From assembly GCA_022867325.1 (NCBI GenBank), contig JALHUR010000084.1, forward strand, positions 6,084 through 70,083: DNA of 64,000 nucleotides. The letters are read 5' to 3'. Source of the DNA: Candidatus Aminicenantes bacterium (GTDB lineage Bacteria > Acidobacteriota > Aminicenantia > Aminicenantales > JAFGBC01). The notes beneath the pieces were generated by a model. It worked only from the letters and a program-made list of their open reading frames with translations, did not search any database and had not been told where the DNA came from. The translations under genes and the position numbers were made by a program. Shown here in pieces: positions 12,845 through 57,512 of the stretch. Each line of letters starts with the position of its first letter. The stretch's first letter is position 1.

Positions 12845-13928
12845 TGGCGAAGCGCCTCATCTTGACGTTGAGGATCAATCCCACGGCCAGGAAGGTGGCC
12901 GTCAGGGACGAGCCTCCGTAGCTCAGGAGCGGAAGGGGAATTCCCGCGATGGGCAGGACGCCGATGATCATCAGGATGTTGATGAAGAATTGAAAGGCGA
13001 TGAAGGAGGAGGCCAGGAACGAGATATAAACGCCGGCCCTGTCCCGGGACTGTCCGACCGACTTGAACAGCCGGCCCAGGAACAAGTAATAGAGGATCAG
13101 GGCGGCCAGACTCCCGGCGAACCCGAATTCTTCGCCGATGACCGAAAAGATGAAATCGGTATGGCGGGCCGGCAGGAAGCGAAGCTGACTCTGGCTTCCT
13201 TTCTTGAAGCCTTTTCCTAAGAGCCCGCCGGACCCGATGGCGATCTTGGATTGGCGGATTTGATAGCCCGCCCCCTGCGTATCCTGACCCGGGGAGAGGA
13301 ACGTCATGATCCGCTTCTTCTGGTAGTCTTTGAGAGTCAAGTTCCAGGTCACCAGGCTCAGGAGAACTATGATGATGAGGAGGACGACGAGCGTCTTCTT
13401 GGTCCGGCCGGCCAGGATCAGGGCGGCCGCCAGGATCGGGATATAGCAAACGGCCGTGGCCAGGTCGGGCTGGAGGGCCACCAGGACGAACGGAACGAAG
13501 ACGGCGCCGGCGCCGGTTAAGGCGATTGTCCGCGTCACGAATGTTTTTTTGGCGGCCCCGAACAGCTGGGCCAGGACCAAGATCAGGACGACCTTAAGGA
13601 TCTCGGACGGCTGGATTTGGAAGAACGGCATCCGGATCCAGGACTTGGTCCCGGCCGTGGTCCGGGCGAACGGGATCATGGCGGCCAAGACGGCCACGAT
13701 CAAAACATAGACGGGCAGGGCGAAGGTCATCAGCGTTTTATAGTCGACGGCCAGGATGAAAAAGAGCATAACCAGGCTGAAGGCCGCGAAGGTGAATTGC
13801 TTCAGGAAATAGGCGCCGCCGGCTTGGTGAGAAGAGCTGTAGATGGCGGCGATGCCCAAGGCCGTATTCAGGAGCAGAAGAACGATCAACCTCCAGTCGA
13901 TTTCCTGGAAATGCTGTCTGTCAATCAT
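12837..13928 (-). CDS. rodA: rod shape-determining protein RodA (SEDS family)
   Basis: 363 aa, multi-TM, FtsW/RodA family. Confidence 0.9.
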   Translation of the reverse strand: MIDRQHFQEIDWRLIVLLLLNTALGIAAIYSSSHQAGGAYFLKQFTFAAFSLVMLFFILAVDYKTLMTFALPVYVLIVAVLAAMIPFARTTAGTKSWIRMPFFQIQPSEILKVVLILVLAQLFGAAKKTFVTRTIALTGAGAVFVPFVLVALQPDLATAVCYIPILAAALILAGRTKKTLVVLLIIIVLLSLVTWNLTLKDYQKKRIMTFLSPGQDTQGAGYQIRQSKIAIGSGGLLGKGFKKGSQSQLRFLPARHTDFIFSVIGEEFGFAGSLAALILYYLFLGRLFKSVGQSRDRAGVYISFLASSFIAFQFFINILMIIGVLPIAGIPLPLLSYGGSSLTATFLAVGLILNVKMRRFANV

Positions 13929-15732
13929 TCCTGGACCTACAGAGCTCGAACAGGGGTTTGGCCAGCGGGGCGGCGACCGCTCCGCCCATTCCGCCGTACT
14001 CGACGAGCACGGTCACGACGTAGCGGGACTTCTGGCGCGGGGCGAAGCCCGTGAACCAGGAATGGGTCTTGATCGTCCTCTTGAGCTTCTCCGCCTTCTC
14101 GGTGCTGATGATCTGAGTCGATCCCGTCTTGCCGCAGACGTCGAAGCCGTCGACCCGGGCCGCCCGCCCCGTCCCCTCCTCGTTCACCGAACGGTACATA
14201 CCCTCGATAACTTTCTCAAAACTGGAGGGCCGGATATCGACCCGGCCGGCCTGCTTGAAGGGATCGGCCGATGTTTTGGCCGTTTCGTCGACGGGCGCCA
14301 AAAAAAGACGGGGGACGACGGGCTCCCCGCGATTGGCGATGAGCGCCGTGTAAGCGGCGACCTGGAGTGGAGTCACAATCAGGGGGCCCTGTCCGATGGC
14401 CACCGAGATCGTCTCGCCCGCGAACCAGCCCGCCTTGTGGGTCCTTTTTTTCCAGTCCGGATGGGGTACCAATCCCTCTTTCTCACCCGGGAGATCGATT
14501 CCCGTCTTCCGTCCCAGGCCCATTTTTTCGGCCGTCTTGGCGATGTCCTCGATCCCCATTCGGCGGCCTATGTTGTAGAAATAGATGTTGCACGAGTAGC
14601 TGAGCGCATTGGGCAAGTTCAGGGAGCCGTGGCCCGCCTCGAACCAGCAGGCGAACGGATGACCGTAGATCTCGATCTTGCCGCCGCAATAATAAGTCGT
14701 GTCCTCGCCGATCAGGCCGGATTCGAGGGCGCCGATGGCCATGACCGGCTTGAAGACCGAGCCCGGGCTGTAAAGGCCCCGGATGGCCCGGTTCTCGAGC
14801 GGGTAGTTGGGGCTTCGGATCAAGGACAGCCATTCATCGACCGTGAATCGGTTGATGAACTTATTGGGATCGAAGGTCGGAAAACTCGCCAAAGCCAGGA
14901 CCTCGCCGTATTCAGCGTCGAGGACGACGATGGCCCCTTCCTTGCCCAGGAGAAGCTCCTCGGCCCTTTTCTGAAGGCTGATGTCGATCGAAAGCGTCAG
15001 GTTCTCCCCCTGTTTGGGCTCCTCCCTGGCCTCCTCTCCCTTGGGCTTTCCCACGCTGTCGACGATCTCCAGGATGCGGCCCTTCTTCCCGACCAGACGC
15101 GCTTCGTACTGCCGTTCAATCCCGTTCCTGCCGACAAGGTCTCCGGCCTGATGATCGCGAAAGCGGTTGGACCTCAGCTCTTCCAGCGTCAATTCCTGTA
15201 GATAGCCGAGGACATGGGCTGCAGCGCTTCCCTGAGGATAGATGCGCTTGGGTTCGGCCGTGACCAGGAGTTCGGGAAACTCGTACAGGCGCGCCTAGAT
15301 TCGCGAGACCTCCTCCCTGGTCAGGTTGTCCTTGACCGGGACCGGCTTATAGCCCGGCAACGAACCGAAGCGCCCGATGCGCGCCCGGATCGTCTCGACC
15401 GGAAGCCCGAGCAGGTCTCCGATCCGCCGGACGGAGGCATCGAGGTCGCCGCTATTGTCGCGGACGATCGAAGCCGTGAATGAGGCGGCGTTGTCGGCGA
15501 GCTTGACGCCGTTCCTATCCAGGATCAGTCCGCGCGGGGCGGCCAGAACGACCTCGCGGGTTCGATTGGACTCGGACAGGGCCCAGTACTTGGCATGATC
15601 CAAGATCTGAATTTTCCAGTAAAGAACGAGCACGGCCCCGAACAGGATCTTGACGATCGCAAATACGGCCTTCGACCGCCGGCAGACGAGCGTCAGGTCC
15701 TCGTAGATGCGTTCCGTATCCTGGGGGCTCAC
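13921..15732 (-). CDS. mrdA: penicillin-binding protein 2 (transpeptidase), interrupted by a single in-frame TAG at 15295-15297
   Basis: ORFs 15295..15732 (PBP dimerisation N-terminus) and 13921..15192 (transpeptidase domain) are in the same frame, 604 codons in total. The 34 codons between them translate coherently (ARLYEFPELLVTAEPKRIYPQGSAAAHVLGYLQE). The only disruption is one TAG. Confidence 0.8.
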
Positions 15733-33038: not shown

Positions 33039-33243
33039 GCTGATGGGTGCGCTCGATCCGTTGACGGACGGCGAATCCCCTCCGCGCCATTCCACGGACG
33101 TCAGTCCGTGGAGGGATAGCGTATCGTCGCTTCGGGGACAGGCAGCGGTTTCGCAGTACTCATGAACCGGAAACGGTTCATGGGTGCGCTCCACCGCCTT
33201 CGACGGGCAGATCCCCGGACGTAAGTTCGTGGAGCTTCAGTCC
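33039..33243 (+). repeat. palindromic mosaic repeat, family B copy 1 (tandem units bounded by ccacggacgtNagtccgtgg hairpins)
   Basis: Begins 5 nt after the DUF5107 stop. Contains atgggtgcgctc modules, gaaccgGAAAcggttc and ccacggacgtcagtccgtggag / ccccggacgtaagttcgtggagcttcagt. Confidence 0.7.
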
Positions 33244-34006
33244 TATCCGCGATCCCAGCGCCGGTAAGGGATGACGCTCAAGTCCTGGGCGCGGGCCAAC
33301 CGGATGATATCGAAGAAGTTTCCGGCTTCGGGGACGAGCTTATAGGTCCGGTAGCGGATGAAGCCGTACTCGGACTGGGGCTCGAGCAGGCACGGGATAA
33401 GAACGGCGCCGGGCTGGGTGGATCGTGGCGCGAGGCGCCCTCCTGGATGAAGGACAGGGTTTGGAAAATCCCCGGGCTGTTGCGGCCGTCGTTGAGGTCC
33501 GTCGTGCTGAAGCGCGTCATCTCCTCCCGTCCGGCCGTATCCTCGGGGCGGAGGGCGGCGCCGGCCGAGGTATTGACGCCCATTTCCTCCGTCACCAGAT
33601 ACTCCTGAAAAGTCACTCCGTCCTTGGCCAGGCTTTTCTCGACCGAGGCCAGAAGCCGATTCCTGGAAAAGTCCTGGAGACGCCGATCGATATTGGCGTT
33701 CGAGACGCAGCCGATCGAGACCCGGTAATAGTCGTCGCCTTTTTCGTGGACGTCGATGGTGACCTCGGGCATCCAGGCCCTGAAAACGGCATGGACGGCC
33801 TTGACCTCCTCGGATTCGATCTTGACGTGGTCCCGGTTGAGGTCGATCCCGTACTCGTTGGCCCGGACGTCGAAATAATTTCCGTAGGGATTGGTTTGGG
33901 GAATGACCAGGACGTTGATCCTATCCAGGAGGCGCCCCCATTCTCCGGCGGCCAGATCCCGGATCAGCCCGAGGGCGGCCTCCTTGGGTGAGAGATTTTT
34001 AATCAT
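33243..34006 (-). pseudogene. M14-family zinc carboxypeptidase gene remnant (N-terminally truncated, frameshifted near 33410)
   Basis: ORF 33278..34006 has M14 motifs (IPQTNPYGNYFDVRANEYGIDLNRDH) but lacks the HxxE zinc site, and its C-terminus degenerates into P/S-rich out-of-frame sequence. The plausible continuation (PGAVLIPCLLEPQSEYGFIRYRTYKLVPEAGNFFDIIRLARAQDLSVIPYRRWDRG) is in another frame and ends at TAG about 33243, directly abutting repeat B1. Confidence 0.5.
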
Positions 34007-34084
34007 CTCCTCATCGTCCTCTAAACAGGGATCGGCTATAATAGCGATCCCATGAACGATTTCATCCCGAAAGGAGTTCGAATC

Positions 34085-35395
34085 ATGAACAGAACGCGCG
34101 TCATCTCCATCTTGACCGTTCTCATCCTAGCAACCATGACATCGGGAGCCGTCCTGGCCCAGGACGCCGAAGACGACCAGGGCCTTGAGGATATCGCCGT
34201 CATCAAGCAGAAAGCGCCCAAGGTTTACATCGACTGTGAGCATTGCGACCTTGATTAGGTCCGGACCGAGATCCCCTACGTCAATTATGTCCGTGACCGC
34301 AAGGAGGCCGACGTCCACATCCTGATCACGACCCAGACGACCGGGAGCGGCGGCACGGAATATACGATGGCCTTCATCGGCCGGGGCGCCTACGAAACGA
34401 TCAACAGCACCCTCGTCTATGCTTCGGGTAAGACGAATACCGAGGATGAAGTTCGCCGCGGCTATGTTCAGGTGCTTAAAATGGGGCTGATGCATTATGC
34501 GTCGCGGACGCCGATCTGCAGCTTAATCGATATCGGCTTCCGTCGCACCGTCAAGCCGACCGACGTCATCGATCCCTGGAAGTTTTGGGTGTTCAGCTTG
34601 GGCCTGGGCGGAGATCTCCGGGGCGAATCGCAGGCCAAAAACAGCATGTTCTACGCCAACTTCTCGGCGAATAAAGTCACGCCGGACATCAAGCTCCGGC
34701 TCGGTCTGACAGGCTGGTTCGAAAACAGCAGCTTCGACTATGACGGCAAAGTCATCGACAGCTCGTCGGAAAGCGGATCAATCAACGCCCTCGTTGTCAA
34801 GAGCCTCTCCGACCACTGGTCGGCCGGCGCCCTGCTGTCCGTCGAGACTTCGACCTACAGCAACCTTAAGTCTAGGATTACGCCCTCGCCCGCCCTTGAA
34901 TACAATCTTTTCCCCTATGCCGAATCGACCCGCCGCCAGCTCCGCTTTCTCTATCGTGTCGGCTACGAGATGACCCGTTACCGGGATATGACCATTTACG
35001 ACAAGATGAAGGAAAATCTCCTGAGCGAGGCCCTCTCGGCCACCATCGAGGTCAACGAACCCTGGGGGACGATCGAGGCGTCCTTGGAGGGGTCCCACTA
35101 TTTCCACGATTTTAAAAAGAACAGGCTCGAGTTTGGGGGCGAGGTGTCCTTCCGTATCTTCAAGGGCCTCAGCCTGGAGATCGACGGCCGCTACGAGCGC
35201 GTTCGCGATCAGCTCGCTCTGGCCAAGGGAAACTTGAGCCTGGACGAGATCCTTCTCCGACGCCGGGAGTTGGCCACCGACTATAACTACTTCGTCTTTC
35301 TGAGCCTTAGCTACACGTTCGGATCCATTTACAGCAACGTCGTCAACCCCCGCTTCGGGGATTGGGGCGTCCCCCATATGGAGGAATATGACTGA
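34085..35395 (+). CDS. DUF4835-like secreted/outer-membrane protein, interrupted by an in-frame TAG at 34256-34258
   Basis: AAAGGAG RBS and signal peptide (MNRTRVISILTVLILATMTSGAVLA). ORFs 34052..34258 and 34367..35395 are in the same frame with a coherent read-through (CEHCDLD*VRTEIPYVNYVRDRKEADVHILITTQTTGSGG). The stop aligns with an aromatic (Tyr) position of the DUF4835 CD..Y..EI motif as recalled from family members. Confidence 0.5.
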
Positions 35396-41645: not shown

Positions 41646-41808
41646 TAATCCCCTTCGAGGGATTCCACGGACGTTAGTCCATGGAGGAACCCCCTTTCGG
41701 GGGCTGGCAGCGATTTTGCAGTGCCCTTGAACCGGAAACGGTTCGTGTGCGCGCTCCGACGCCTGCAAAGGGTAGATCCCATGGACGTAAGTCCGTGGAG
41801 CTTCAGTA
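41646..41808 (+). repeat. palindromic mosaic repeat, family B copy 2
   Basis: Begins 14 nt after the GWxTD1 stop. attccacggacgttagtccatggag ... gaaccgGAAAcggttc ... gcgcgctccgacgcctgcaaagggtagatcccatggacGTAAgtccgtggagcttcagt. Confidence 0.7.
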
Positions 41809-45286: not shown

Positions 45287-45424
45287 CCCGTTCGCCGACG
45301 CTACGCCGCCCTGAAAGGCGGGGACGAGAAGCGAGGCTCAGGGTTAACTTCCGCGCTTCGGGGACAGGCGCTCCAACACCTGCAAAGGGCAGATCCCACG
45401 GACGTAAGTCCGTGGAGCTTCAGT
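45287..45424 (+). repeat. composite repeat: family A copy 3 fused to a short family B copy 3
   Basis: cacccgttcgccgacgctacgccgccctgaaaggcggggacgagaagcgaggctcagggttaac | ttccgcgcttcggggacaggcgctccaacacctgcaaagggcagatcccacggacGTAAgtccgtggagcttcagt. Confidence 0.7.
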
Positions 45425-53696: not shown

Positions 53697-54169
53697 GCCG
53701 GTTTTCTCCTGAAAAGAACGATAAGGAGGAGGCAGGCGCCGATCGAAATGCAGGAATCGGCGAGGTTGAAGATCGGCCAGTGCCAGCGCTTGATGTAGAC
53801 GTCCATGAAGTCGATGACCGAGCCGCGCAGGATCCGGTCGACGTTGTTGCCGACGGCCCCGGCCAGGATCAAGGACAACGCGGCCAGCATCAGGACGTCC
53901 CGGCCCGGAGTCTTTATGAAATAGAAGACGACCAGCCCCAGGGCCAGGAAAGACGCCAGGGCCAGAATCCAGCGAAAGGCCGGGTTTCCGGCGTGGGACA
54001 GAAAGCCGAAGATGGCCCCGTCGTTGCGATTATAGGTAAGGTTGATAAACCCCCGGATGATGGGCCGGCTTTCATAGAGGGTCATGCTCTTGGCGATCAG
54101 GGACTTGGTCCATTGGTCCAGGACGACCGTAAGGCCGATCAATCCCAGGGCGAGTCCTTTCCGTTTCAC
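53693..54169 (-). CDS. lspA: lipoprotein signal peptidase II
   Basis: GTG start at 54169 overlapping the ileS TGA (GTGA). LspA motifs NRNDGAIFGF, FNLADSCISIG. Track ORF extends further upstream but would overlap ileS. Confidence 0.75.
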   Translation of the reverse strand: MKRKGLALGLIGLTVVLDQWTKSLIAKSMTLYESRPIIRGFINLTYNRNDGAIFGFLSHAGNPAFRWILALASFLALGLVVFYFIKTPGRDVLMLAALSLILAGAVGNNVDRILRGSVIDFMDVYIKRWHWPIFNLADSCISIGACLLLIVLFRRKPA

Positions 54170-56943
54170 GTCCGATTCCCTTCCAGGACTCCGGAGCAGC
54201 GACTGCAGCAGTTGGGAAAAGCCTTGGACAAGCCGACCGTCGTTGCGTAGTTCCAGCAGCGCTCGCATTTCTCCCCCGGGGCCCGGCCGACCCGGACCTC
54301 CAGCTCCGGGCCTCCCCCCTCCCCGAGCGTCACGGCCGAAACGATGAACAGGGCCGGGAGGGCGGCCTCGTGCTTTCGGAGAAGCCCGAGCTGGGCTTGG
54401 GGCGCGGCCAGGCTCAGCGACGCCTCGAGCGAATTCCCGATGAGTTTGTCCACACGGGCCTTCTCGAGCTCCTTGAGGACCTTCTCCCGGACGGCCATCA
54501 GAGCTTCCTGTTCGTTGAAGGGGTCCGGTTCGAGCCATCTTTCCTCGAAAGCGGGAAACAATCCCAAGTGGACGGACTCCGTTTTGCCGGAGAAAGCCGG
54601 CATGGCCTCCCAGGCCTCTTCGGTCGTGAAGGGGAGGATGGGCGCCATGAGGGCCAGCGTATCCTTAAGGATCCGGAACAGGGCCGTCTGGGCCGAACGC
54701 CTAAGGCGCGACTTTTTGGCCGAGCAGTAGAGCCGGTCCTTGATGATGTCGAGATAGACGGCGCACATCTCGACCGTGAAGAACTGGTAAAGGGAGTGGA
54801 AAACGACGTGGTACTCATAGTCTTGGTACCCCTGCAGGATGCGTCGGCCGGTCCGGGCCGTCGTCTCCAGCGCCCAGCCGTCGAAGATCTCCATCTCGGC
54901 GGCCGGGACGGCATCGGCGGCCGGGTCGAAATCGTAGAGGTTGCCGAGCAAGTAGCGCCAGGTGTTGCGGATCTTGCGGTAGGCCTCGACCAGGCGCTGG
55001 AGGATCTCGGTCCCGAACCGGGCGTCCTCCTTGAAGTTCAGCATGGCGACCCACAGCCGCAGGATCTCCGCCCCGTTCTGGGCGATGATCCGGCCGGGAT
55101 CGATGACATTCCCCATCGATTTCGACATCGCCCTCCCCTGCTCGTCCAGGACAAAGCCGTGGGTGATGCAAGTCCGGTAGGGCGATCCGCCTTTGGCTCC
55201 GACTCCGATCACGATCGAGCTGTTGAACCAGCCCCGGTACTGGTCGTGACCCTCGACGTAGACGTCGGCGGGCCAGGGCAGGTCGGGCCGTTTGCCCAGT
55301 TCGCCTTGGCTGGCCCCGGATTCGAACCAGACGTCGATGATGTCGTTGGCTTTTTCGAACTCCGCGGCGCCGCAGGAGGCGCAGGACGTTCCCCGGGGGA
55401 TGAGATCCCCGGCCGGCTTGATGTACCAGGCGTTCGAACCCTCCCTTGAAAAGACATCGGCGACGTGGCGGGCGATGCTGTCGCCGGCCACGACGGCCCC
55501 GCATCGGACTCAGTGAAAGGCCGGGATGGGTACGCCCCACAGGCGCTGGCGCGAGATGCACCAGTCGGGGCGGCCGCTCATCATATTGGCGATCCGCTCC
55601 TCGCCCCAGGCCGGAATCCAGCGGACCTTGCCGACCGCTGCCTGGGTTCGATCCCTCAGGCCGGCCGCGTCCATCGAGATGAACCATTGCTCGGTGGCCC
55701 GGAAGATGACGGGGTTCTTGCAGCGCCAGCAGTGGGGGTAGGAGTGGCTGATGGCTGTTTCCTTGAGGAGGCTCCCGTCCTTCTTCATGTCTTCGCTGAT
55801 GGGCTTATTGGCCTTGAAAACGTTGAGGCCGGCGTACTTGGCGACGTCGGGCGTGAAGTTCCCGGCGCCGTCGACGGGCGTGTAGATGTCGAGGCCGTAA
55901 GCCATGCCGGTCAGATAGTCGTCGTGGCCGTGTCCGGGCGCGGTGTGTACGGCGCCCGTCCCGTCCTCGAGAGTCACGTAATCGCCCAGGACGAAGACCG
56001 ATTCCCTGTCGATGAAGGGATGGCGGGCCTTGAAGCCCTCGAGTTCGCCGCCCAGGAAAGTCGCCAGGAGCTTAGTTTCCTTGAATCCGAGCTCTTCGGC
56101 CACCACCGGGACGAGGCGCTTGGCCAGGAGATAAACTTCGGCGCCGACCTCGACGGCCGCGTACTCGTGCTCGGGATGGAAGGCGATGGCCAGGTTGGCC
56201 GGCAGGGTCCAGGGCGTCGTCGTCCAGATCAGGACGTAGACCGTCTTTCCTTTGAGGGCCGGCGCTTTGGCGGACAGGTCGGAGACGACCGGAAACCGGA
56301 CGTAGATCGAAGGCGACGTCTTGTCCCTATACTCGATCTCGGCCTCGGCCAGGGCCGTTTGACAGTGGAAGCACCAATGGACCGGCCGCTTCCCTTTATA
56401 GACATTGCCCGAGGCAAAGAAAGCGGCCAGGTAGCGAATCGTCTCGGCCTCGTACTCGGGATTCATGGTCAGGTAGGGCGTTTCCCATTCGCCCAGGACG
56501 CCCAGCCGGATGAATTCGGAGCGCTGGATGTCGATGTATTGAAGGGCGTACCGCCGGCACTCTTCGCGGATCTGGGTGATCGACATGGATTTCTTTGCGT
56601 CGCCCAACTGCTTGTCGACCTGGATCTCGATCGGCAGGCCGTGGCAGTCCCAGCCGGGCAGGTAGGCGGCCTGGAATCCCTGCATGCTCTTGGTCTTGAC
56701 GATAAAATCCTTTAGGATCTTGTTGAGGGCCGTCCCGAGGTGGATGTGGCCGTTGGCGTAGGGAGGCCCGTCATGGAGGACGAAGCAGGGGCGGCCTTTC
56801 CGGGATTCCAGGATTTTCTTGTAGAGACCGATGGCGTCCCAGGCCTTGATGATTTCGGGTTCGTTCTGGGCCAGCTTGGCCTTCATCGAGAAAGACGTCT
56901 GGGGCAGGTTCAGGCTGAGCTTGAGATCCTTGTCGTCCGACAT
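54166..56943 (-). CDS. ileS: isoleucine--tRNA ligase, interrupted by a single in-frame TGA at 55510-55512
   Basis: ORFs 55510..56943 (HIGH-region half: PYANGHIHLG) and 54166..55491 (KMSKS half: KMSKSMGNV, C-terminal Zn-finger CERCW...CSRC) are in the same frame, 926 codons in total, with a coherent link ...WGVPIPAFH*VRCGAVVAGDSIARHVADVF. The stop sits where many IleS sequences have Cys (FYCExCG). Confidence 0.85.
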
Positions 56944-57014: not shown

Positions 57015-57512
57015 ATGTCAATTCCGCGCGCGGTCAAAGCGCTCGTCAAGGATTACGACCTGGTTTTAAGCGCGGTCCCGGGCGCGCTGGGATTCCAAAC
57101 GCTGCGCGCCGTAATCGAAGCCCGCCGAACCGTCGTCGACATCGCCTTTTTCCCCGAAGATCCATTCGCCCTGTCGGAGGCGGCCGATAAAGCCGGCATC
57201 CAGGCCGTCGTCGACTGCGGGGTCGCCCCGGGCCTGAGCAATGTCCTGGTCGGACACGTCCAAACCCGGCTCGACGAAACGCGATCGGCGGCCATCTACG
57301 TCGGAGGCTTGCCCGAGGTCAGGGAGCGCCCCTTCGAGTATAAGGCCGTTTTCTCGCCCTCCGACGTCATCGAAGAGTACTTAAGGCCGGCCCGGCTTAT
57401 TCAAAACGGACGCCTCGTCGTCCGGCCCGCGCTATCCGAACCGGAGCTCATGGATTTTCCGGGCGTCGGGACGCTCGAGGCCTTCAACACCGATGAAGAA
57501 GTCGGGACTTGA
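57015..57512 (+). pseudogene. saccharopine-dehydrogenase-like gene fragment (central portion only)
   Basis: 165-aa ORF resembles only the middle of about 400-aa saccharopine dehydrogenase-like NAD(P) enzymes (DLVLSAVPGALGFQTLRAVIEARRTVVDIAFFPEDP...). No Rossmann GxGxxG N-terminus and no C-terminal domain. Squeezed between the ileS promoter region and a convergent radical SAM gene. Confidence 0.4.

What the first reader, a model, noticed from the sequence alone, without database searches (positions are those of the whole stretch)
34256..34258. In-frame TAG in a DUF4835-like outer-membrane protein gene at a Tyr-aligned position
ORFs 34052..34258 and 34367..35395 share a frame. The read-through sequence ...CEHCDLD-TAG-VRTEIPYVNYVRDRKEADVHILITTQTTGSGG... 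is a contiguous DUF4835-type domain. The TAG occupies a position that is usually aromatic (Tyr/Phe) in this family, and TAT/TAC to TAG is a single substitution. This is the third case of the same pattern in the window: nonsense codon at a conserved residue, no indel.
Basis: partly seen in the sequence, partly recalled or inferred. Interest (0 to 1): 0.55.

Follow-up and report, generated by a model that had tools for sequence, protein, structure and literature searches.

The report
Point-mutation stop splits membrane-protein gene
A single-letter change (TAT to TAG) unique to this metagenome-assembled Aminicenantes genome puts an ordinary stop codon into an otherwise intact outer-membrane protein gene, so it is a broken gene or an uncorrected sequence error, not a case of unusual genetic decoding.

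Summary
Window 34085..35395 (+) is one 436-codon gene interrupted only by TAG at codon 58 (34256-34258). Homologues have Tyr (108/120) or Phe (12/120) there. The nearest relatives have TAT, so this is a single T>G change with no indel.

The interpretation needs trimming. No family member matches DUF4835. It is an unannotated family with a signal peptide, a periplasmic alpha/beta domain and a roughly 12-strand outer-membrane barrel.

TAG is not recoded here:
- TAG is the conserved terminator of mreB and other genes in the window and its relatives.
- The window's second in-frame TAG (PBP2) replaces Glu, not Tyr. The in-frame TGA (IleRS) replaces an invariant zinc-site Cys.
- No suppressor tRNA, Rfam element or significant RNA structure is present.
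- All 13 relatives at 90% identity or more are full length with Tyr58. Degenerate DNA scans found no TAG at this site elsewhere.

The window comes from a GenBank MAG that already splits the gene into MUQ00_03520 and MUQ00_03525. Two neighbouring genes are eroded remnants.

Best reading: a recent, MAG-specific nonsense substitution, either a real allele or a consensus error. Only the reads can tell these apart. It is ordinary and of low interest.

The parts
34085..35395 (+). Full reading frame of the interrupted gene: 436 codons, an exported outer-membrane beta-barrel protein of an unannotated family
   Evidence: Collinear with no gaps to the 436-aa P0001/L001 gene at 94.5% aa identity, with one internal stop. 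The model of P0001 shows a signal helix at 2-27, an alpha/beta domain at 44-147 and a barrel at 169-413. PDB fold matches are OmpG, NanC and autotransporter barrels.
34256..34258 (+). In-frame TAG at codon 58, replacing Tyr (TAT in the nearest relatives): a third-position T>G transversion
   Evidence: All 13 cluster relatives at 90% identity or more have Tyr here.
34072..34076 (+). Shine-Dalgarno AGGAG, 8 nt upstream of the true start ATG at 34085
   Evidence: Read directly from the sequence. The start position agrees with the homologues.
34085..34258 (+). 5' fragment as it would be translated: signal peptide plus 32 residues (57 aa). Annotated in GenBank as hypothetical protein MUQ00_03520 (MCJ7586953.1).
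   Evidence: Exact-sequence look-up.
34367..35395 (+). 3' fragment ORF (342 aa) from the first in-frame ATG after the stop. It lacks the signal peptide and the first third of the periplasmic domain. Annotated as hypothetical protein MUQ00_03525 (MCJ7586954.1).
   Evidence: It clusters at 90% or more with 13 full-length proteins of 435-447 aa.
13921..15732 (-). PBP2 (mrdA) gene with in-frame TAG at 15295-15297 replacing Glu146 (GAG in the relative). Same class of lesion.
   Evidence: There is no protein accession between RodA (MCJ7586939) and MreD (MCJ7586940), so it is evidently annotated as a pseudogene.
54166..56943 (-). Isoleucyl-tRNA synthetase gene with in-frame TGA at 55510-55512 replacing the invariant Cys478 of the CxxC motif (TGC in the relative). 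Same class of lesion.
   Evidence: One locus tag without a protein lies between lspA (MCJ7586967) and MUQ00_03600.
33240..33991 (-). Eroded remnant of the M14 peptidase gene immediately upstream of the target. It lacks 615 bp and 443 bp present in relative L001, where the gene is 567 aa.
   Evidence: One deletion junction lies between copies of the 11-bp direct repeat GGCCTCCTTGG. An independent Logan contig, L006, is 100% identical across both junctions.
57015..57494 (+). Eroded remnant of a saccharopine-dehydrogenase-like gene. Only residues 55-214 of 382 are kept.
   Evidence: Annotated as hypothetical protein MUQ00_03600, while 10 of the 14 other listed cluster members are 382 aa.

Best explanation
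The TAG is an ordinary nonsense substitution: Tyr58 TAT to TAG, one T>G change. It arose very recently on the branch leading to this one metagenome-assembled Aminicenantes genome, and it is read as a normal stop.

Taken at face value, translation ends after 57 residues (signal peptide plus 32 aa). The 342-codon remainder has no signal peptide, lacks part of the periplasmic domain and has only a weak ribosome-binding context. So no functional outer-membrane protein is made, and the gene is a fresh pseudogene.

It belongs to a thin layer of recent, poorly purged changes in this assembly. That layer includes two other nonsense codons (PBP2, IleRS) and sits next to two older, eroded gene remnants.

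Shown: the substitution, its uniqueness, normal use of TAG as a terminator, and the absence of recoding signals.

Inferred: that the truncated products are non-functional, and that the allele is real rather than a consensus error.
For: 1. Single-base difference from the sense codon of the nearest relatives, with no indel. The rest of the gene shows past purifying selection: 45 synonymous versus 24 nonsynonymous codon differences.
2. Uniqueness. Tyr/Phe in 120/120 homologues. Tyr in all 12 full-length relatives in the 90%-identity cluster whose motif could be read (12 of 13; P0416 was not matched by the motif search but aligns X58Y) plus the partial P0428, the closest differing at only 6/436 residues. 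Zero hits for a degenerate TAG-at-this-position pattern in 185,579 species genomes and 241 million metagenome records.
3. TAG is a working, conserved terminator. mreB and a 145-aa gene end in TAG in both the window and its relatives. About 8 of some 53 genes end in TAG.
4. The second in-frame TAG replaces Glu, not Tyr, and the TGA replaces Cys. The stops therefore share only the property of being one mutation away from the ancestral codon.
5. No tRNA, no Rfam family and no structure beyond shuffled controls after any of the stops.
6. The lineage does carry genuine gene decay. The M14 remnant has microhomology-flanked deletions and is reproduced 100% by an independent assembly.
7. Across nine genes the window has 16 unique missense plus 3 nonsense changes in 3,370 codons. 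This is consistent with a recent, barely filtered mutation layer.
8. The GenBank record already treats the gene as split, and evidently treats PBP2 and IleRS as pseudogenes.
Against: - No independent assembly confirms the TAG itself. The same-strain Logan contigs stop 7 nt before it (L006) and resume 219 nt after it (L003). The 57-aa and 342-aa fragments exist only in this MAG's record.
- One companion stop destroys a zinc-ligand Cys of IleRS, normally an essential single-copy enzyme. That is hard to reconcile with a viable genome unless a second ileS exists. It raises the possibility that some or all three stops are consensus errors or minority/defective alleles.
- Downstream of the stop there is almost no sign of relaxed constraint, only one unique missense change (P137H). 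The event is therefore either very recent or not real.
Confidence: 0.55

Rival explanations
1. Consensus or base-call artefact. The organism's real gene has TAT/TAC (Tyr) and is intact. The G at 34258, and likewise the stops in PBP2 and IleRS, are errors of a low-coverage or strain-mixed metagenome assembly.
For: - Three nonsense codons in about 55 genes, including the normally essential ileS at an invariant Cys.
- All three are transversions.
- There is no independent record of the TAG.
- The independent Logan assembly of the same strain is fragmented into 1.1-kb and 2.9-kb contigs. It breaks on either side of the TAG, in a strain-variable stretch. That suggests low coverage or heterogeneity there.
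Against: - The sequence is otherwise of high quality: no frameshift in 22 genes compared with relatives, and 100% identity to L006 over 1,100 nt.
- There is no excess of unique changes at invariant residues.
- Random errors dense enough to give three stops should give tens of other changes, with a roughly even spread.
- The unique changes show no single damage signature.
Confidence: 0.33
2. Tolerated or programmed read-through. UAG (and UGA) in these genes are decoded at useful efficiency by a suppressor or near-cognate tRNA (Tyr at this UAG, Cys or Sec at the IleRS UGA), so full-length proteins are still made.
For: - The stops lie in genes that should be needed (IleRS, PBP2).
- This TAG sits at a Tyr codon position and the TGA at a Cys position, which are the near-cognate amino acids.
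- The gene downstream of the TAG is undamaged.
- A hairpin follows the IleRS TGA and is slightly stronger than in the Cys-encoding relatives.
Against: - The PBP2 TAG replaces Glu, so no single suppressor restores both TAG sites.
- TAG and TGA are the normal, conserved terminators of neighbouring genes.
- No tRNA, SECIS or other Rfam element is present.
- Downstream structures are no better than shuffles.
- The stop occurs in none of 13 close relatives, none of 120 homologues and no public contig scanned.
- Any nonsense mutation must by definition be one step from a sense codon, so the 'near-cognate' match carries no weight.
Confidence: 0.05
3. Genome-wide reassignment of TAG to a sense codon, or pyrrolysine-type decoding.
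For: Two in-frame TAGs occur at conserved positions within 64 kb.
Against: - TAG terminates mreB and other genes at exactly the homologous ends, in this genome and in its relatives.
- About 15% of genes end in TAG.
- The two sites align to chemically unrelated residues, Tyr and Glu.
- No relative needed a non-standard code to give full-length proteins.
Confidence: 0.01
4. Functional split gene. Translation restarts at ATG 34367 and the 342-aa product works on its own.
For: An in-frame ATG lies 36 codons after the stop, and the ORF is annotated as a protein.
Against: - The product would lack the signal peptide needed to reach the outer membrane, and residues 44-94 of a confidently folded domain.
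- There is no clear Shine-Dalgarno before 34367.
- All relatives keep the gene in one piece.
Confidence: 0.02

Closest known systems
Nonsense-mutation pseudogenes ('internal stop' pseudogenes as flagged by NCBI PGAP) in bacterial genomes and MAGs
   Same: - A single-base change from a sense codon of close relatives.
- An otherwise intact, collinear gene.
- The standard stop codon is used normally elsewhere.
- Neighbouring genes carry the same class of lesion, and the public record evidently annotates them as pseudogenes.
   Different: Nothing essential. The only peculiarity is that this gene has no curated family model, so the annotation pipeline called two 'hypothetical proteins' (MUQ00_03520 and MUQ00_03525) instead of one pseudogene.
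Stop-codon reassignment or suppression systems (TAG to Gln in some phages, pyrrolysine at UAG, selenocysteine at UGA, suppressor tRNAs)
   Same: In-frame stop codons at conserved positions of otherwise intact genes.
   Different: - The stop is still used as a terminator.
- The interrupted sites align to different amino acids.
- It is unique to one assembly.
- No tRNA or RNA element was found.
Outer-membrane beta-barrel proteins with a periplasmic N-terminal domain (fold neighbours OmpG, NanC, PcoB, autotransporter beta-domains)
   Same: Signal peptide, a barrel of about 12 strands, and Foldseek E-values of 1e-7 to 1e-5 to these barrels.
   Different: Sequence identity is only 9-14%. No Pfam or NCBIfam family is reached. 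The N-terminal alpha/beta domain has no counterpart in those structures. The function of the family is unknown.

Membership tests
   - No DUF4835 hit for the window's read-through protein at E<=0.01.
- None for intact P0001 at E<=10.
- None for any of 66 family members at E<=1.
- NCBIfam gives no hit.
Outer-membrane beta-barrel protein (general class) | N-terminal Sec signal peptide and a closed antiparallel beta-barrel of amphipathic strands | tested here: met
   - Hydrophobic N-terminus ending in VLA|QD.
- The AlphaFold model has 12 long strands at 169-413 with pLDDT 70-94.
- Foldseek matches to OmpG, NanC, EstA/EspP barrels and PcoB.
- Scattered weak Pfam hits to barrel families.
Nonsense-mutation pseudogene | The stop codon is one substitution from the sense codon of close intact orthologues, with no other lesion | tested here: met
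   TAT in L001/L002 versus TAG here. Both genes are 1311 nt with no gaps.
Nonsense-mutation pseudogene | The lesion is lineage-specific (orthologues intact) | tested here: met
   13 of 13 relatives at 90% identity or more are full length, and all 120 top homologues are intact. DNA pattern scans found no other TAG at the site.
Nonsense-mutation pseudogene | The stop is real in the organism's DNA (not a sequencing error) and no full-length product is made | not testable with these tools
   No reads or expression data are available. Independent contigs of the same strain stop 7 nt short of the site.
Nonsense-mutation pseudogene | Relaxed selection after inactivation | tested here: inconclusive
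   Only one unique missense change (P137H) lies downstream, and there are no indels. This fits a very recent event and equally fits an artefact.
TAG sense-codon reassignment | TAG is no longer used as a terminator, and in-frame TAGs align to one consistent amino acid | tested here: not met
   TAG ends mreB and other genes at conserved positions. The in-frame TAGs align to Tyr and to Glu.
TAG sense-codon reassignment | A tRNA with a CUA anticodon is present and release factor 1 is lost | tested here: inconclusive
   There is no tRNA gene in the 64-kb window. The rest of the genome was not available.
Selenocysteine or pyrrolysine recoding | A cis-acting RNA element (SECIS) after the stop, and dedicated machinery | tested here: not met
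   No Rfam hit. The 80 nt after each stop fold no better than shuffles (z = +0.69, -0.44, +0.33). The machinery genes could not be checked outside the window.

The most novel reading that the evidence does not exclude
This Aminicenantes population tolerates in-frame UAG and UGA codons in needed genes (IleRS, PBP2 and this outer-membrane protein). It could do so because termination is leaky or a suppressor activity exists. Alternatively, it is a lineage in early genome decay, with about 9% of genes broken in this window. Either would be unreported for this phylum.
Probability: 0.04. Interest if true: 0.6.

Novelty: already known. Interest (0 to 1): 0.1.

Why it matters
It matters mainly as a clean negative. 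An eye-catching 'stop at a conserved residue, three times in one window' pattern turns out to be ordinary point lesions in a metagenome-assembled genome, not an alternative genetic code or programmed read-through.

Practical consequences:
- MUQ00_03520 and MUQ00_03525 in the public record are two halves of one gene and should be annotated as a single pseudogene, or corrected.
- The same assembly carries stops in ileS and mrdA that deserve read-level checking before the MAG is used for metabolic or essential-gene inference.
- The gene belongs to a large family (more than 6,700 hits) of outer-membrane proteins that has no annotation at all. That family may deserve a model of its own.

Tried and rejected
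- TAG reassignment: rejected. TAG is a conserved terminator, and the two in-frame TAGs align to different residues.
- mreB/mreC as another 'interrupted' frame: rejected. These are two adjacent genes that share a frame, and TAG is the true mreB stop.
- Selenocysteine at the IleRS TGA: there is no Rfam SECIS hit and no significant structure. The hairpin is only marginally stronger than in Cys-encoding relatives.
- Synthetic or planted mutation: rejected. The exact 57-aa and 342-aa fragments are in GenBank under MUQ00_03520/03525, and the deletion junctions show natural microhomology.
- General sequence-error load: no frameshifts in 22 genes and no excess of changes at invariant residues.
- Oxidative-damage signature: the three stops plus P137H looked like 8-oxoG-type transversions. 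The wider set of 19 unique changes has a mixed spectrum, so this was dropped.
- A local error cluster around the TAG: D118N and P137H are at only moderately conserved sites, and the region is simply strain-variable.
- Interrupted ileS in a related 4.3-Mb contig (L007): this is a frameshift at a different site in a long-read assembly, and unrelated.
- Searches that found nothing:
  - exact-flank and degenerate DNA scans of genome and metagenome collections;
  - look-ups of truncated fragments and mreD;
  - literature on Aminicenantes with stop codons or pseudogenes, and on the sample accession;
  - the afdb50 fold library, which was unavailable.

Full report
**Observation.** ORFs 34052..34258 and 34367..35395 share a frame and are separated only by TAG at 34256-34258. 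The real start is probably ATG 34085. It has an AGGAG 8 nt upstream and coincides with the start of the homologues. The gene is therefore 436 codons with the stop at codon 58. A protein search returned more than 6,700 homologues of about 430 aa, mostly from Candidatus Aminicenantes. In an alignment of the best 120, the TAG column is Tyr in 108 and Phe in 12, inside the strongly conserved motif D-Y-I-R-T-E-I-P-F-V-N-Y-V-R-D.

**Nearest relatives.** Two Logan contigs (L001, L002) encode a 94%-identical, uninterrupted protein and have TAT at codon 58. The window differs by one T>G change. The genes have the same length and differ at 45 synonymous and 24 nonsynonymous codons, so the gene was under purifying selection until very recently. 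The 342-aa fragment falls in a 90%-identity cluster with 13 full-length proteins (435-447 aa). All of them have Tyr58, and the closest differs at only 6 of 436 positions. A degenerate DNA pattern requiring TAG at this position, followed by the conserved motif, found nothing in 185,579 species genomes or in 241 million metagenome records. The stop is thus unique to this assembly.

**The 'pattern'.** A codon-usage scan for stops with coding signal in the same frame on both sides gives three true interruptions:

| Position | Gene | Stop | Residue in homologues | Codon in nearest relative |
|---|---|---|---|---|
| 34256-34258 (+) | target | TAG | Tyr 108/120, Phe 12/120 | TAT |
| 15295-15297 (-) | PBP2 | TAG | Glu 110/120 | GAG |
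| 55510-55512 (-) | IleRS | TGA | Cys 120/120 (CxxC motif) | TGC |

Each stop is a single transversion with no indel. The two TAGs replace chemically unrelated residues, so no single decoding rule explains them. What they share is what every nonsense mutation has: it is one step from a sense codon.

**Is TAG a stop here?** Yes. MreB ends in TAG and mreC follows in the same frame. The relatives end mreB and a 145-aa gene with TAG at the same positions. About 8 of roughly 53 predicted genes end in TAG. The window has no tRNA gene and no Rfam match. The 80 nt after each of the three stops fold no better than shuffled sequence. A hairpin after the IleRS TGA is slightly stronger than in the Cys-encoding relatives, but not significantly so.

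**Context of gene decay.** A gene-by-gene comparison with relatives over about 21 kb shows 17 of 22 genes perfectly collinear, 3 with a nonsense codon, 2 surviving only as fragments, and no frameshifts.

- The M14 peptidase gene directly upstream of the target lacks 615 bp and 443 bp.
- A saccharopine-dehydrogenase-like gene keeps only residues 55-214.
- The deletion junctions show microhomology, in one case an 11-bp direct repeat, as natural deletions do.
- An independent contig from run SRR19116065 (L006) is 100% identical to window 33150-34249. It spans both M14 junctions, so that lesion is real.
- L006 ends 7 nt before the TAG. The other same-strain contig (L003, 99.76% identical) starts 219 nt after it. 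The TAG itself therefore has no independent confirmation.
- The stretch in between is strain-variable, which probably explains the assembly break.

**Quality of the sequence.** Apart from the stops, the window has no excess of unique changes at invariant residues. Over nine genes (3,370 codons) with several close relatives, it carries 16 unique missense and 3 nonsense changes with a mixed mutational spectrum. That looks like a thin layer of very recent, poorly purged substitutions, or an equivalent low rate of consensus errors. It does not look like a heavily error-laden assembly.

**Source.** Exact-sequence look-ups place the window on a 74,763-bp contig of a GenBank MAG named Candidatus Aminicenantes bacterium.

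- The two halves of the gene are annotated as hypothetical proteins MUQ00_03520 (57 aa, MCJ7586953.1) and MUQ00_03525 (342 aa, MCJ7586954.1).
- PBP2 and IleRS have no protein accession between their numbered neighbours, and exactly one locus tag is skipped at IleRS. They were evidently annotated as pseudogenes.
- The TAG is therefore in the deposited record and was not introduced later.

**What the protein is.** No Pfam or NCBIfam family is reached. In particular there is no DUF4835, for this protein or for any of 66 family members; only a sub-threshold LptD_2 hit and scattered weak barrel hits appear. An AlphaFold model of the intact 94% homologue (mean pLDDT 81) shows three parts:

- a signal helix;
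- a compact alpha/beta domain at residues 44-147, with pLDDT about 95, containing Tyr58 in a short helix;
- a beta-barrel of about 12 strands at residues 169-413.

Foldseek against the PDB returns OmpG, NanC, PcoB, Tsx and autotransporter barrels. 'Outer-membrane protein' is supported. 'DUF4835-like' is not.

**Mechanism and verdict.** Read with the standard code, which this lineage demonstrably uses, translation stops after the signal peptide plus 32 residues. The downstream ORF lacks the export signal and part of a folded domain, and has no clear ribosome-binding site. No functional product is expected; this step is an inference.

- Most likely (about 0.55): a recent, assembly-specific nonsense allele in a lineage that shows other gene loss.
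- Main rival (about 0.33): the G is a consensus error. This is made more plausible by the companion stop in the normally essential ileS and by the lack of independent confirmation.
- Programmed read-through, code reassignment or a functional split gene together deserve well under 0.1.
- Only the reads can separate the first two. Neither is novel.

Noticed in passing
window 15295-15297 (-), gene 13921..15732: The PBP2 (mrdA) gene carries an in-frame TAG replacing Glu146 (GAG in the 95% relative L005; Glu in 110/120 homologues). The GenBank record has no protein for it between RodA and MreD.
   Followed up: yes
window 55510-55512 (-), gene 54166..56943: Isoleucyl-tRNA synthetase carries an in-frame TGA replacing the invariant first Cys of a CxxC motif (TGC in relative L004). 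A 13-bp hairpin starts about 17 nt downstream. It is slightly more stable than in the Cys-encoding relatives but not beyond shuffled controls. An essential gene with a stop is the strongest hint that the assembly's stops may not all be real.
   Followed up: partly
window 33240-33991 (-): The M14 peptidase gene is reduced to fragments by two deletions (615 bp and 443 bp relative to L001), one of them between 11-bp direct repeats. An independent Logan contig (L006) confirms this at 100% identity. Other relatives carry 220-aa and 164-aa versions in the same protein cluster, so the erosion may be shared by several strains.
   Followed up: partly
window 57015-57494 (+): A saccharopine-dehydrogenase-like gene is reduced to residues 55-214 of 382 by two flanking deletions with short microhomology. 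It is annotated as hypothetical protein MUQ00_03600.
   Followed up: partly
window 33092-33113, 33213-33234, 41665-41686, 41779-41800, 45396-45417: A 22-nt palindromic motif (CCACGGACGTCAGTCCGTGGAG) occurs 5 times in intergenic DNA (0 expected by chance), twice as pairs about 120 nt apart. This is a REP- or MITE-like element. The copy at 33087-33239 replaces a shorter, unrelated spacer in relative L001.
   Followed up: partly
window 34085..35395 and homologues P0001-P0120: The gene belongs to a large family (more than 6,700 database hits, mostly Aminicenantes/Acidobacteriota) of roughly 430-aa outer-membrane proteins. They have a conserved N-terminal alpha/beta domain and a 12-strand barrel, and no Pfam or NCBIfam model. 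The function is unknown.
   Followed up: partly
window 34400-34550 (codons ~109-155 of the target gene): This is a strain-variable stretch, with 14-19 differences per 100 nt versus L001 against 1-7 elsewhere in the gene. It has many amino-acid replacements and lies in the periplasmic domain and linker. It is possibly a recombination tract or a surface under diversifying pressure.
   Followed up: no
L007 6001-8779 (4.3-Mb contig of a related Aminicenantes): ileS is split into 759-aa and 160-aa ORFs by a frameshift, and nadB is also shortened on the same contig. This looks like indel error in a long-read assembly and is unrelated to the window's TGA.
   Followed up: partly
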